From: Thalia democratica
Taxonomy: Eukaryota
DNA length: 64,000 bases
NCBI GenBank assembly: GCA_965202585.1
Contig: OZ241831.1
Location: forward strand, 10,912,001 to 10,976,000
Reading direction: 5' to 3'
Shown here piece after piece: positions 30,001 through 33,000 of the stretch (the first letter of the stretch is position 1; every line of letters starts with the position of its first letter). A program made the position numbers.

Positions 30001-33000
30001 AATTTTAAAAAATCATAGTTTTTGTTTTTGATATGTAAATTAGATTTAGAGTTTTTTTTTCACTTGGTTTTTGTTTTTTAAGTTACTGGCTAAAGTTATA
30101 AGTATAATTTAATAATAATGAGGTTTTATAGTTTATTGTAAATAAAAAATAGTTTTATTTAACTTAAAAGATGTTTTTGACTTAGGTATTTTCAGATAAG
30201 AAAACTGAAATAAAATAACTTTACTTTACGTTTATCAAAAGTTTTTTTTATAAAACAATATGAAAAGTAGATATTGTTTTATTAAATTTTATTTTTAGCT
30301 ACTTTGGATACATAAACTAACAAAAACTTAGTCTATAAATTAAAAAACTTGTTTATAAAAAATAGTTTTATATACAAATTTTGTTAAAAACATTACAAAT
30401 TATTAAACTTAAATTTTCTATAATTTAAAAAAATACAAACTATTAAATAAGATCAAAAGTGTTTAAAAAAATATCTTTTATTCTAACTAGATAGAGTATG
30501 TACTTAAAATTTAAAGAGAAACTTCATATATTAAACTTTTATAATAAGTAAGTAAAAAAAAAGTCAAAACAACATAAGTATTAAAAAAAATAAAAAGTGC
30601 TTTTATTTCCCAAACGTGGGGTACGATCAATAACTATGAGTGAAGTCTCATATTTGATGATGAAAGTATTGTACCTTAATTTTATTTTAAACGTTTCATG
30701 GGCTCTAATAAACCACAAAAAATTTAAAAAAATTCAAATTTAAATTTTTTTGTACGATCCAAAGCTGTGTGTGAAATTTCATAGTTAACATTTTTTTTTT
30801 AATTTGATAGAATTTAGTAAAGTCTAGAAAAAAAAGTTTTTAATTTTCAAAAAGTATAGAAATGAGTAAATAGTAAAACAACTTTTCCCAGTTTATATTT
30901 TTCGCTTTTGATTTTTCAGTTTATAAAATTTTAACATTTTGTTACACTTTTTTTAAATGGAATGCTTTTAAACTGAGCAAATATATTCTGTCCATAGATT
31001 TTAATTTAAAAATTTTCAATTGACCTCGGTATTACTAAAAACCTGGGTATACTTGTAGTGATAACAAGTAAAGTAAATATTTTATGTAAAAACTATCTCT
31101 TAGTAGTGCTTATTTAAGTACAAAAGCACACTAAAAGTAATAAAACAGTCTTTTTAGGCTAAAGTATTTAAACAAAAGCTTGTTGTTTTGCAAAAAAAAA
31201 TAATATTGCTGCAGAATTGCAGAAACGTACCAAGCTACGTACCTGCAACTAACTAATATTTACTATTCTAACTATTGAATGAAATTTACAAAAGAATGCA
31301 GTAAAACTAATACTAAAATATCTTTATTAATTGAAAATTATCAAAAACAACGATTTACAAAAGTCAGTTGTTAAATATCTGCTATATGTATTTAAAGCGT
31401 ATGCAAAAAAAAATAAATAAAATTGTTTTACACAATCATTATACCATTTAAATCATAAAAGATTCAGTAATTTCTTAAAAAATTTTCTTGCTTACAAGTA
31501 TAATAATTTAAAAAAAATTAATGTTTTTTTATTAGTTATTTTTTTCTCGAAAACATGTTTGATGCATGTAAGAAATTTTTCATTTTTTTATACTGAATTT
31601 GCTTATAAACATTTTTTTTAAGTTAAGTTGTGATGAAATCCTTTGAGGTTTATACCTTATAAAAATCCAAACCAATGTTATTTTAAAAACTTACTTTTAA
31701 TATATGTGTCATAAGGTTTAAAATTAAATTTTATTAATATTATCTCAAAGCTTTTAACAGCGTTCTTTGAGTTCAACCCAATAAAAAAAACACTCGCTAT
31801 AAAAGTTTTTATAAGCTCAGCGATACTCAAAAGTTATGGTTTAATTTCAGGTAAACAATAAAACTACACTCTACGACTCTTTCACAAAAATATTAAAAAG
31901 AAATTTTCTCAGACCAAAACGCACCAAACGTCTCACCCAATCAAAACCGGAAGGAGAACCTGACGAGCTTGTTGTAGTACAGCAAGCCCACCACCAAGTA
32001 GACCACGGTGAATATTTTGAAGAACAAAGTCGAGATGCGGTACCACAGGTCGCAGCTCAGCGCGACCCGGGACGTGGCGTTGAGGTAGAGGAAGAAGAAG
32101 TCGGTGCACGAGTAGAGCAGGTTGCACGCCACGGGCAGGAACACGCGCGCCTTGAACGAGCTGTACCGGTTCTCCGGGTCGGTCAGCGTGTACCAGTAGG
32201 CGATGATCGGCTGCAGCATGACCGGGATGAGGAAGAGCTTGAGGAAGAAGTTCCACGCGATCACGGTGATCACCGAGTCGTACATGAGCTTGAGCGGGCA
32301 CAGCGGAGCGTCCATGTCGAGGGGGAAGACGATGTCGCCGACCAGGAAGCGGTTGCAGGCCAGCACCAGCCGCAGGACCTCGGTGGTGAGGAAGGCGAGC
32401 AACAGACCGCACTCGAAGTTCCTCAGAAACTGCGACGACTCGTCCACTATCCCGGTGATGATGTAAAAGTCCCTCCTCAGTATCCAGAAGAGGAAGTAGG
32501 AGAGGACGTTGATGGAGAAGAGGAGCGTCTTGGTGCCGAGGAAGCCGGTGGTGCCGACGAAAGAGGCGCTGAAGACGGGGAACTTGCCGATGAGGGACGA
32601 AGACAAAGCGACGAAGACGACGGTGGACCAGATGACGAAGAAGCGGTTGGTCTTGCCGAGCTTGCGGTCCTTCTTCATGAGGAGGCGCATGTAGGAGACG
32701 AACATGCAGTACATGGACACGCAGATCAGGATGGCCCTCGTCACTTGCTCGAACGTCGACAGGTTGAATGTCATCGTTGAAGTTTTAAACTGACTGAAAC
32801 ACGAAATAAATGTATTTGTAATGACTTGCTTTTAACTTCAAATAAAGTTTTTCTTTATTTTTGTTTGCAAAACTTGTGCTCATCAAACAACCCTTTGTAA
32901 GACATAAAAAAATCATCACTTTTTTTGTTGATGACTATCAAAACAGTTTTTCACGTATTCTCTTCTTTTTTTTGTTTAAAACACTGTCAACAAAATTCAC

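What the first reader, a model, noticed from the sequence alone, without database searches (positions are those of the whole stretch)
31941..32774. Intronless orphan 7-TM gene with ~94% GC3 in a very AT-rich background
An intact 277-aa ORF with about seven hydrophobic segments and no class A/B/C GPCR signature that I recognise, isolated in a TE-rich intergenic tract, with GC dropping abruptly at both ends. Candidates: a lineage-specific chemoreceptor or GPCR-like family, a retrogene, or a horizontal acquisition. The GC-rich long exons of the neighbouring genes favour a native origin.
Basis: partly seen in the sequence, partly recalled or inferred. Interest (0 to 1): 0.65.

Follow-up and report, generated by a model that had tools for sequence, protein, structure and literature searches.

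The report
Orphan GPCR-like gene, extreme GC3
This is a real single-exon gene for a seven-helix membrane protein from a tiny unnamed family that folds like a G-protein-coupled receptor, and it is written almost entirely in G/C-ending codons inside very AT-rich DNA for a reason not yet known.

Summary
Window 31941-32774 (minus strand) is an intact 277-codon ORF with GC1/GC2/GC3 of 44/35/95%. Non-coding DNA around it is 24% GC, and GC falls within 30-60 nt of both ORF ends.

The protein has seven hydrophobic helices. Charge distribution suggests the N-terminus is outside and the C-terminus inside. It matches no Pfam, NCBIfam, PHROGs or PDB sequence family.

An exhaustive HMMER search of 1.84 billion representatives found only a close orthologue group (92% and 84% identity) and four distant relatives (18-23% identity). 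Profile-profile comparison links the two groups at 98.7% probability. AlphaFold models of the window protein and of a distant relative best match solved GPCRs, but only moderately: TM-score up to 0.61 and no E-value at or below 1e-3.

The neighbouring gene has GC3 of 42%, so the ORF is a local outlier. Its amino-acid make-up is AT-type, and no bacterial, phage or viral donor was found. I read it as a native, lineage-restricted GPCR-fold gene whose synonymous sites are held at G/C. Expression, dN/dS, ligand and source organism stayed untested.

The parts
31941..32774 (-). Complete coding sequence, 277 codons plus TGA. It encodes a seven-helix GPCR-fold protein (P0001) of an unnamed family. GC3 is 94.6%.
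   Evidence: ORF and translation. Codon-position GC. Orthologues at 92% and 84% identity, colinear over the full length. Distant relatives. Seven helices. GPCR fold matches.
32763..32765 (-). Codon of Asn4, invariant in all 7 family members. It forms an N-x-S/T sequon in 6 of 7 (not in P0003), which fits a glycosylated extracellular N-terminus.
   Evidence: Alignment; sequon scan. Glycosylation itself is inferred, not tested.
32463..32477 (-). Codons 100-104 (R-R-D-F-Y) at the predicted cytoplasmic end of helix 3. R100, F103 and Y104 are invariant in 7 of 7. The position recalls the Arg of the class A D/E-R-Y motif, but the acidic residue before the Arg is absent.
   Evidence: Alignment; helix limits. 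Equivalence to class A R3.50 is inferred, not shown by a residue-level structural alignment.
32052..32300 (-). Span from the codon of Cys159 (second outer loop) to the codon of Cys241 (third outer loop). Both are invariant in 7 of 7 and form a candidate extracellular disulfide. The span also holds the invariant M186, P189, W194 (helix 5) and P214 (helix 6).
   Evidence: Alignment; loop assignment. The disulfide is inferred.
32788..32799 (-). Immediately upstream of the ATG lie tttcag (ending at 32794) and two overlapping TCAGTY matches (32788-32797). This is either a splice acceptor of a 5'-UTR intron or an initiator-like start site.
   Evidence: Read directly. Such short matches are common in AT-rich DNA, so this is untested and a lead only.
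31730..31845 (-). Candidate polyadenylation hexamers downstream of the stop: ATTAAA at 31840-31845 and AATAAA at 31730-31735, about 96 and 206 nt after the TGA.
   Evidence: Read directly. The flanks hold about 5.4 such hexamers per 834 nt, so they are at chance level and listed only as candidates.

Best explanation
A native, single-coding-exon gene of an AT-rich, probably animal, genome. It encodes a small seven-helix membrane protein with the N-terminus outside and the C-terminus inside, and it adopts the GPCR helix bundle. It belongs to a very small, unnamed, lineage-restricted family that no current profile library captures. I take it to act as a cell-surface receptor or receptor-like sensor.

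The near-saturated G/C at third codon positions is not inherited from a GC-rich donor. It is held there by a force acting on synonymous sites of this transcript. The likeliest force is selection for expression of an mRNA with no coding introns (export, stability, translation). GC-biased repair is the alternative.

Shown: the ORF, its composition, the family, the seven helices and the GPCR-like models. Inferred: topology, glycosylation, the disulfide, receptor function and the cause of the GC3.
For: Real gene:
- Full-length colinear orthologues at 92% and 84% identity.
- Differences from them are rarer in the seven helices: 5.4% and 13.4% of helix sites against 16.0% and 22.7% of other sites.
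- Four distant relatives were found among 1,835,955,588 representatives. Profile-profile comparison links them to the close trio at probability 98.7%, E 1.6e-16, over 222 columns.

Fold and topology:
- Seven hydrophobic segments. K+R counts are 16 on the loops assigned inside and 6 on those assigned outside. Sequons at N4 and N232 fall on the outside.
- AlphaFold model of P0001: pLDDT 62.7, pTM 0.53, seven long helices. Model of P0005: pLDDT 74.3, pTM 0.71, seven helices plus a short helix after helix 7.
- Foldseek against the PDB: all 47 listed rows for P0001 are GPCRs, best E 6.5e-3, TM 0.55. All 49 listed rows for P0005 are class A GPCRs, best E 2.0e-3, TM up to 0.61.

Composition:
- GC3 is 94.6% against 42.3% in the neighbouring gene (1431 codons) and 24.4% in the background.
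- The enrichment sits at third positions and ends at the ORF ends.
- The amino-acid make-up is AT-type: FYMINK 0.336, GARP 0.159. A protein long resident in a GC-rich donor would not look like this (established knowledge, inference).
- No donor was found in prokaryote genomes, NCBIfam, PHROGs, phage records (76) or viral structures (57).

Precedent: in human cells, high GC content raises mRNA yield, cytoplasmic localisation and translation of unspliced reporters, and GC is highest in single-exon genes (abstract of PMC7181179).
Against: - No Foldseek match reaches E<=1e-3 (0 in each). RMSDs are 5.6-8 A. The alignments hold only 7 sequences, and AlphaFold may default to the GPCR bundle for any seven-helix protein.
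- No GPCR profile matches at E<=10.
- Strict class A motifs are absent: no acidic residue before R100, no conserved Cys at the top of helix 3, and no NPxxY in the window's protein.
- The Atlas feature search gave non-GPCR leads instead, THH1/TOM1/TOM3 and GPR137_N at 0.86-0.88.
- No evidence of expression was available, and dN/dS could not be computed.
- The ORF's commonest codon agrees with the neighbours' for only 4 of 16 amino acids. It prefers C-ending codons such as TCC (8 in the ORF, 1 in 838 neighbour codons), so it is not simply an exaggeration of local usage.
- My simulation does not single out avoidance of poly(A) or splice-donor motifs as the reason. Zero such motifs arise in 307-724 and 301-473 of 1000 synonymous re-codings respectively.
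- The precedent for GC-dependent expression of intronless genes is from human cells, not from an AT-rich invertebrate.
Confidence: 0.5

Rival explanations
1. A seven-helix membrane protein that is not a signalling receptor. It could be an organellar or lysosomal protein of the GPR137 / THH1-TOM1 kind, or a transporter- or scaffold-like protein. The high codon bias would then reflect abundant expression.
For: The Atlas feature search lists THH1/TOM1/TOM3 (0.88 and 0.86), GPR137_N (0.87, carried by 28% of that cluster's members) and UCP031277 (0.86) among the nearest named clusters. The family lacks strict class A motifs. Extreme codon bias is unusual for low-abundance receptors (inference).
Against: All those Atlas scores are below 0.9, which the tool calls leads only, and recognition was low at 2034. 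Pfam models PF06454 and PF27607 do not match at E<=10. Every listed PDB structural match is a GPCR. However, no structure library of cellular predicted proteins was on hand, so those folds could not be tested.
Confidence: 0.22
2. A horizontally acquired or virus-derived gene that still carries its donor's GC-rich codon usage.
For: The composition is sharply foreign to its surroundings. Its codon preferences differ from the neighbours', agreeing for 4 of 16 amino acids. The coding sequence has no introns and sits alone between two unrelated genes.
Against: GC1 and GC2 are low (44% and 35%) and the amino-acid make-up is AT-type. No relative was found in one genome for each of 185,579 prokaryote species (14 pattern matches, none confirmed). 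None was found in NCBIfam, PHROGs or 50,697 phage records. BFVD gave only generic viral GPCR matches, best E 3e-2. Orthologues at 84-92% protein identity imply the gene is not brand new, and in a 24% GC genome an unselected GC3 would decay (inference). No terminal repeats or target-site duplication: the one bracketing inverted repeat is at chance level, since 33 of 100 shuffles give at least 2 matches, and it has no duplication.
Confidence: 0.1
3. A native gene whose GC3 comes from a local GC-biased gene conversion or recombination hotspot rather than from selection on the mRNA.
For: The log-odds shift towards GC is large: 3.99 against 0.82 for the neighbour. CpG observed/expected is 1.09, not depleted. 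The passages I read of PMC10978632 describe GC3 heterogeneity in insects as consistent with biased gene conversion.
Against: The enrichment stops within 30-60 nt of the start and stop codons and sits at third positions only, while GC1 and GC2 stay at 44% and 35%. Biased conversion should also raise the UTRs, the flanks and, in part, the first and second positions (inference).
Confidence: 0.1
4. A retrogene: a processed copy of a multi-exon parent gene located elsewhere in the genome.
For: The coding sequence is uninterrupted and stands alone between unrelated genes.
Against: No flanking direct repeats bracket the ORF, and there is no paralogue in the window. A/T runs downstream are no more than the AT-rich background gives. 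The colinear orthologues suggest that, if it is a retrocopy, it is old and is the functional copy. The rest of the genome could not be searched, so a parent gene cannot be excluded. This reading does not exclude the best explanation.
Confidence: 0.08

Closest known systems
Class A (rhodopsin-like) G-protein-coupled receptors
   Same: Seven helices with a likely N-out/C-in topology. A short N-terminus carrying a sequon. An invariant Arg at the predicted cytoplasmic end of helix 3, invariant Pro in helices 5 and 6, and a short helix after helix 7 in the P0005 model. All best structural matches are GPCRs, and for P0005 all 49 listed rows are class A.
   Different: No match to PF00001 or any other GPCR profile at E<=10. 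No acidic residue before the Arg. No conserved Cys at the top of helix 3; the two invariant Cys sit in outer loops 2 and 3. No NPxxY in the window's protein, whereas the four distant relatives have Q-x-x-P-x-x-[YF]. Structural E-values are only 2e-3 to 4e-2.
Lineage-specific, intronless chemoreceptor families derived from the GPCR fold (vertebrate T2R and V1R; nematode and mollusc candidate chemoreceptors). Named from recall; related titles seen only in the listing.
   Same: About 280-330 aa, a single coding exon, a short N-terminus, weak or absent classical motifs and a restricted taxonomic range.
   Different: Those families are large and tandemly expanded. Here only one copy lies in 64 kb, and only 7 family members were found in all. 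None of their Pfam models matches. No expression data link this gene to sensory tissue.
GPR137 / THH1-TOM1-TOM3 seven-helix proteins
   Same: Similar size and seven helices. They are the nearest named clusters in the Atlas feature search, at 0.86-0.88.
   Different: The scores are below the tool's 0.9 lead threshold. PF06454 and PF27607 do not match. Their fold could not be compared with the libraries on hand.
GC-rich single-exon genes of the human genome (Mordstein et al. 2020, PMC7181179; abstract and outline read)
   Same: Unspliced coding sequence with raised synonymous GC. That paper offers a tested mechanism: GC content raises mRNA yield, cytoplasmic localisation and translation of unspliced reporters.
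   Different: That work is in human cells, where the shift is moderate and sits within GC-variable isochores. Here the contrast is 95% GC3 against a 24% background in an unidentified AT-rich genome, and no experiment links the two.

Membership tests
Class A GPCR (Pfam 7tm_1, PF00001) | Significant match to the family profile | tested here: not met
   Pfam gives 0 families at E<=10 for P0001. No GPCR family appears for P0005-P0008 at E<=1. PDB sequence searches with the protein and with the profile give 0 hits at E<=10.
Class A GPCR (Pfam 7tm_1, PF00001) | Seven transmembrane helices, N-terminus outside, C-terminus inside | tested here: met
   Seven hydrophobic segments. K+R counts are 16 on inside loops and 6 on outside loops. 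Sequons at N4 and N232 fall on the outside. Both models have seven long helices. Topology rests on the positive-inside rule and is an inference.
Class A GPCR (Pfam 7tm_1, PF00001) | GPCR helix-bundle fold | tested here: inconclusive
   All 47 and 49 listed PDB rows are GPCRs, with TM-score 0.45-0.61. However, 0 matches reach E<=1e-3, model confidence is moderate (pLDDT 62.7 and 74.3) and the alignment has only 7 sequences.
Class A GPCR (Pfam 7tm_1, PF00001) | D/E-R-Y at the cytoplasmic end of helix 3 | tested here: not met
   The family has [LQ]-R-[RK]-x-F-Y. The Arg is invariant (7 of 7), but the residue before it is L or Q, never D or E.
Class A GPCR (Pfam 7tm_1, PF00001) | Disulfide between the top of helix 3 and outer loop 2 | tested here: not met
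   There is no conserved Cys at the outer end of helix 3; a Cys occurs nearby in 2 of 7 members only. The invariant Cys are C159 (loop 2) and C241 (loop 3).
Class A GPCR (Pfam 7tm_1, PF00001) | NPxxY in helix 7 | tested here: not met
   The window's protein and its two orthologues have K-I-F-[TA]-V-V-Y without Pro. The four distant relatives have Q-x-x-P-x-x-[YF].
Class A GPCR (Pfam 7tm_1, PF00001) | Coupling to heterotrimeric G proteins or arrestins | not testable with these tools
   This needs cell assays.
Insect odorant/gustatory receptors (seven-helix ion channels) | Match to the 7tm_6 / 7tm_7 profiles, N-terminus inside, and the OR/GR fold | tested here: not met
   No Pfam match. The charge distribution favours N-out. 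None of the 47 and 49 listed PDB rows is an OR, GR or Orco structure.
GPR137 / THH1-TOM1-TOM3 | Match to PF27607 or PF06454 | tested here: not met
   0 Pfam families at E<=10. There are only Atlas feature scores of 0.86-0.88.
GPR137 / THH1-TOM1-TOM3 | Shared fold | not testable with these tools
   No library of predicted cellular structures was on hand, and no such entry appeared among the listed PDB rows.
Retrogene | Intron-bearing parent paralogue, poly(A) remnant and target-site duplication | tested here: inconclusive
   No paralogue in the 64-kb window and no bracketing direct repeats. The rest of the genome was not available.
Horizontally transferred gene | Closest relatives in a donor lineage, with donor-type composition at all codon positions | tested here: not met
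   No relatives in prokaryote genomes, NCBIfam, PHROGs, phage records (76) or specific viral structures (57). GC1 and GC2 are 44% and 35%, and FYMINK is 0.336 against GARP 0.159. Eukaryotic donors could not be searched by name.

The most novel reading that the evidence does not exclude
The family is a previously undescribed branch of the GPCR fold, outside every curated class. Its extreme GC3 would be the first clear invertebrate case of an intronless gene in a very AT-rich genome being recoded at nearly every synonymous site so that its unspliced mRNA can be exported and expressed. The Lys in the middle of helix 7, found only in the close trio where the distant relatives have Gln, could then mark a new ligand- or chromophore-binding site.
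Probability: 0.12. Interest if true: 0.7.

Novelty: new variant of a known kind. Interest (0 to 1): 0.45.

Why it matters
If the reading holds, the gene adds a GPCR-fold family that no profile library recognises and that genome annotation is likely to miss or leave unnamed.

It also offers a clean natural test case for what holds synonymous sites at G/C. The coding sequence sits at 95% GC3 against 24% GC around it and 42% GC3 in the next gene. That is a log-odds shift of about 4, against 0.8 for the neighbour. Selection on the mRNA and biased gene conversion make different predictions for the flanks and for polymorphism here.

Recoding the gene with AT-rich synonymous codons, with and without an intron, would test directly whether the GC-dependent expression of intronless genes seen in human cells (PMC7181179) also applies in an AT-rich invertebrate-type genome.

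Tried and rejected
- **Transposon carrying the ORF.** The inverted repeat 31049-31092 / 33970-34013 brackets the ORF and has 14 exact terminal bases. I rejected it as chance: there are only these two copies in the window, 33 of 100 shuffles give at least 2 matches at up to 2 mismatches, and the flanks show no target-site duplication.
- **Bacterial promoter/terminator scan.** It is not meaningful for a eukaryotic gene and was not used.
- **Avoidance of poly(A) signals, splice donors and AUUUA as the reason for the GC3.** In 1000 synonymous re-codings each, zero poly(A) hexamers arise in 724 (neighbour codon usage) or 307 (background usage), and zero donor-like motifs in 473 or 301. These motifs therefore do not discriminate. 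Only A5/T5 runs (0 of 1000 either way) and, under background usage, AUUUA (21 of 1000) are clearly avoided, which follows trivially from the GC3.
- **First estimate of neighbour GC3.** The 56% from 13 islands and 838 codons was biased, because I had picked the islands by GC>=45%. I replaced it with homology-mapped exon matches, which give 42.3%.
- **Naming the source organism.** This failed. Rfam found 0 families and ARAGORN 0 tRNAs. The neighbour-exon search returned one unnamed protein. The second Atlas call gave only 'Eukaryota, commonest Chordata (phylum known for 6)' for the kinase-subunit cluster. The two very GC-poor aphid-parasitoid wasp genomes were considered and rejected, because their third-position GC is 15.5% and 10.7% (passages of PMC7257214).
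- **P0004.** This 475-aa repeat protein matched in 8 stretches, all to query 202-239. I dropped it from the family as spurious.
- **The two other open frames over the ORF.** Rejected as by-products of the GC3.
- **The listing of cluster members.** It was switched off, so the accessions and contigs of the relatives stayed unseen.
- **Word searches of the paper library.** They found no description of such a family or of GC3-extreme intronless genes in AT-rich invertebrate genomes. These searches cannot find a sequence, so this is weak evidence that it is not in print.
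Full report
**1. The observation**

Window 31941-32774 holds, on the minus strand, an ATG-to-TGA open frame of 277 codons. An in-frame stop lies 19 codons upstream of the ATG, so this is the first Met of the frame. GC at codon positions 1, 2 and 3 is 43.7, 35.0 and 94.6%. The ORF as a whole is 57.7% GC, while the 1-kb flanks are 24.1% and 21.2%.

Third positions are C 167, G 95, T 9 and A 6, so only 15 of 277 codons end in A or T. GC outside the GC islands of the window is 24.4%, and 30-nt windows fall to 17-37% within 30-60 nt beyond both ORF ends. The window holds no N, and nothing in it looked human.

Two other long frames are open across the same stretch. They carry the GC at codon position 1 (88% and 93%), are hydrophilic and match no Pfam family, so they are by-products of the GC3. 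The core observation is confirmed.

**2. The surroundings**

On the plus strand, 24 tblastn matches between 4121 and 25286 cover residues 1-1182 of P0009. P0009 is a 1182-aa protein with the Glyco_hydro_15 and KPBB_C domains, that is, a phosphorylase b kinase regulatory subunit. On the minus strand, exons at 52277-52528 and 57951-58112 match CLPTM1. The ORF therefore sits alone in a gap of about 27 kb between two unrelated, intron-rich genes.

I searched the neighbour's exons one at a time.

- **'TE-rich'.** Only 3031 of 64000 bases are repeated within the window, 1305 of them between 25307 and 52252, and none touches 31000-33800.
- **'GC-rich long exons'.** The neighbour's exon matches are 26-174 codons long and pool to GC3 of 42.3%, range 13-69%, over 1431 codons.

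An earlier figure of 56% was biased upward, because I had picked those islands by their GC. The ORF is thus an outlier even against local genes. Its commonest codon agrees with the neighbours' for only 4 of 16 amino acids, and it prefers C-ending codons.

**3. The protein and its family**

Pfam gives no family at E<=10. NCBIfam and PHROGs give none. The PDB sequence search gives none, with either the protein or a family profile.

- The word-indexed search of 5.8 billion clusters found 2 proteins among 917 candidates: P0002 (277 aa, 92% identity) and P0003 (278 aa, 84%). Both are listed as ENA, unnamed, and sit on contigs of 998 and 1783 nt.
- The exhaustive HMMER search of 1,835,955,588 representatives found 6 proteins at E<=1e-3: P0002, a repeat protein I dropped as spurious (P0004, 8 stretches all matching query 202-239), and four genuine distant relatives, P0005-P0008 (281-330 aa, E 3.1e-7 to 1.8e-4).
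- None of the four has a Pfam family above noise.
- They are 18-23% identical to the close trio and 24-44% identical to each other. A profile-profile comparison of trio against quartet gives probability 98.7%, E 1.6e-16, over 222 columns.
- A profile search with all seven returned only P0007, P0002 and P0003 among 7241 candidates, again unnamed.

The nucleotide sequences, genomic context and taxa of the relatives therefore stayed unchecked.

**4. Anatomy**

Family-averaged hydropathy gives seven segments: 14-28, 46-68, 77-93, 122-134, 170-190, 216-229 and 248-268. The first inner loop holds 7 Lys/Arg. In all, 16 Lys/Arg lie on the loops assigned inside and 6 on those assigned outside. The sequons at N4 and N232 fall on the outside. 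The inferred topology is N-out/C-in, as in GPCRs.

Residues invariant in all seven members are N4, I17, S20, L95, F96, R100, F103, Y104, T107, E121, C159, L182, M186, P189, W194, L197, P214 and C241.
- N4 forms a sequon in 6 of 7 members (not in P0003).
- R100-x-x-F103-Y104 lies at the predicted inner end of helix 3.
- C159 and C241 lie in outer loops 2 and 3 and are a candidate disulfide.
- The trio has Lys253 in mid-helix 7, where the four distant relatives have Gln followed by x-x-P-x-x-[YF].

Differences between the window's protein and its orthologues are rarer in the seven helices (5.4% and 13.4% of sites) than elsewhere (16.0% and 22.7%). This fits constraint on the helix bundle. It is no substitute for dN/dS, which I could not compute.

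**5. Fold**

AlphaFold2 on the 7-sequence alignment gave a moderate model for the window's protein: pLDDT 62.7, pTM 0.53, seven long helices. It gave a better one for P0005: pLDDT 74.3, pTM 0.71, seven helices plus a short helix after helix 7.

- Foldseek against the PDB found no match at E<=1e-3 for either model.
- All 47 listed rows for P0001 are GPCRs of classes A, B1 and adhesion type. The best is a neurotensin receptor at E 6.5e-3 and TM 0.55.
- All 49 listed rows for P0005 are class A GPCRs. The best E is 2.0e-3, and TM-score reaches 0.61.
- No insect OR/GR, microbial rhodopsin or other seven-helix fold appears among the listed rows.
- Against viral predicted structures the best rows are herpesvirus GPCR homologues at E 3e-2 or weaker, so no specific viral relative exists there.

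I take the GPCR bundle as the likeliest fold, with two caveats. The alignment is shallow, and AlphaFold may default to this bundle for any seven-helix protein. No library of predicted cellular structures was on hand, so the Atlas leads (THH1/TOM1/TOM3 and GPR137_N at 0.86-0.88) could not be tested by fold.

**6. Membership**

The protein works like, and probably folds like, a GPCR, but I do not file it as a member of class A.
- The profile does not match.
- The residue before the helix-3 Arg is L or Q, not D or E.
- There is no conserved Cys at the top of helix 3.
- NPxxY is absent from the window's protein.

It also fails the tests for insect OR/GR, on profile, topology and fold, and the profile test for GPR137/TOM1.

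**7. Where the GC3 comes from**

The amino-acid make-up is of the AT-genome type: FYMINK 0.336 and GARP 0.159, with no His. GC1 and GC2 are low. A gene long resident in a GC-rich donor would be expected to be rich in Gly, Ala, Arg and Pro; this is established knowledge applied as inference.

No relative was found in one genome for each of 185,579 prokaryote species (14 pattern matches, none confirmed). None was found in NCBIfam, PHROGs, 50,697 phage records or BFVD. The only inverted repeat bracketing the ORF is at chance level and lacks a target-site duplication. No direct repeats bracket it, and the window holds no paralogue. Horizontal transfer and recent retroposition are therefore not supported, although eukaryotic donors and the rest of the genome could not be searched.

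The enrichment is confined to third positions and ends at the ORF's limits. That argues against a regional process such as biased gene conversion, which should also raise the flanks; this too is an inference.

As a simple log-odds against the 24.4% background, the shift is 3.99 for the ORF and 0.82 for the neighbour. Under a mutation-selection-drift model (recalled, Bulmer-type), this corresponds to a scaled selection or conversion coefficient near 4, at the high end of what is reported.

The most economical cause is selection on the transcript. In human cells, high GC content raises mRNA yield, cytoplasmic localisation and translation of unspliced reporters, and GC is highest in single-exon genes (PMC7181179; I read the abstract and outline). 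Whether this applies in the source organism is untested.

My simulation shows that avoidance of poly(A) or donor-like motifs alone does not explain it. The ORF's preferred codons (TTC, ATC, GTC, ACC, GCC, TAC, AAC, GAC, TGC, GGC, CGC, AAG, GAG) resemble the optimal codons of Drosophila as I recall them. That would fit translational selection in an insect-like genome, but this is recall, not a test.

**8. Gene structure leads**

Twenty nt before the ATG lies tttcag, overlapping two TCAGTY matches (32788-32799). This could be a 5'-UTR splice acceptor or an initiator. ATTAAA and AATAAA lie 96 and 206 nt after the stop, but such hexamers occur about 5 times per 834 nt in the flanks. None of this counts as evidence of function. 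'Intronless' is shown for the coding sequence only.

**9. Source organism**

It was not identified. Rfam and tRNA scans found nothing, and the searches returned no organism names. The neighbours (a KPBB_C-type kinase subunit with at least 24 exon matches, and CLPTM1) suggest an animal; this is an inference. The very GC-poor aphid-parasitoid wasps are excluded by their third-position GC of 15.5% and 10.7% (passages of PMC7257214). Passages of PMC10978632 gave general context on insect GC3 but no match. The supplements of these papers were not seen, and their orphan-gene lists could in principle bear on the family.

**10. Verdict**

This is a real and probably native gene for a lineage-restricted, GPCR-fold, seven-helix protein from a family that no curated library names. 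It shows a striking and so far unexplained saturation of synonymous sites with G/C.

Lineage-specific seven-helix orphan families are common, so the protein alone is of moderate interest. The compositional contrast is the unusual part, and it is directly testable. Four word searches of the paper library found no description of either feature, which is weak evidence of novelty. I rate it a new variant of a known kind, with interest 0.45.

Noticed in passing
window 4121-25286 (+): A phosphorylase b kinase regulatory subunit gene, mapped as 24 separate tblastn matches covering residues 1-1182 of P0009. Third-position GC varies from 13% to 69% between exons of this one gene.
   Followed up: partly
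window 52277-52528 (-) and 57951-58112 (-): Exons of a CLPTM1-family gene. Pfam PF05602 matches at E 1.4e-22 and 1.5e-3, and the second is below the curated cut-off. The gene's 3' end and remaining exons were not mapped.
   Followed up: partly
window 38265-38418, 53846-53969, 55193-55436; also 47893-48222: Short dispersed repeats, richer in GC than the background, recur two to four times in the window. They are probably small mobile elements and were not classified.
   Followed up: no
window 35281-35863 (-): Two overlapping open frames with a Cys-rich translation contain an exact 38-nt tandem duplication at 35485-35560. No Pfam family matches above noise. This may be a transposon remnant; that is my guess from recall only.
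   Followed up: no
window 31049-31092 and 33970-34013: A 44-nt inverted repeat, 77% complementary with 14 exact terminal bases, brackets the ORF. It is at chance level for this AT-rich DNA and has no target-site duplication.
   Followed up: yes
window 31845-32780 (+) and 31933-32784 (-): Frames of 311 and 283 codons stay open over the ORF because stop codons are rare in this GC3-rich stretch. The plus-strand one is rich in Glu and Asp, and both carry their GC at codon position 1. A gene finder could mis-call them.
   Followed up: yes
P0005-P0008 (distant relatives), loop between helices 3 and 4: All four distant relatives have N-N-[TS] in the loop predicted to be cytoplasmic, where the window's protein has D-E-S. 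If that site were glycosylated, the inferred topology would be wrong. This was not resolved.
   Followed up: no
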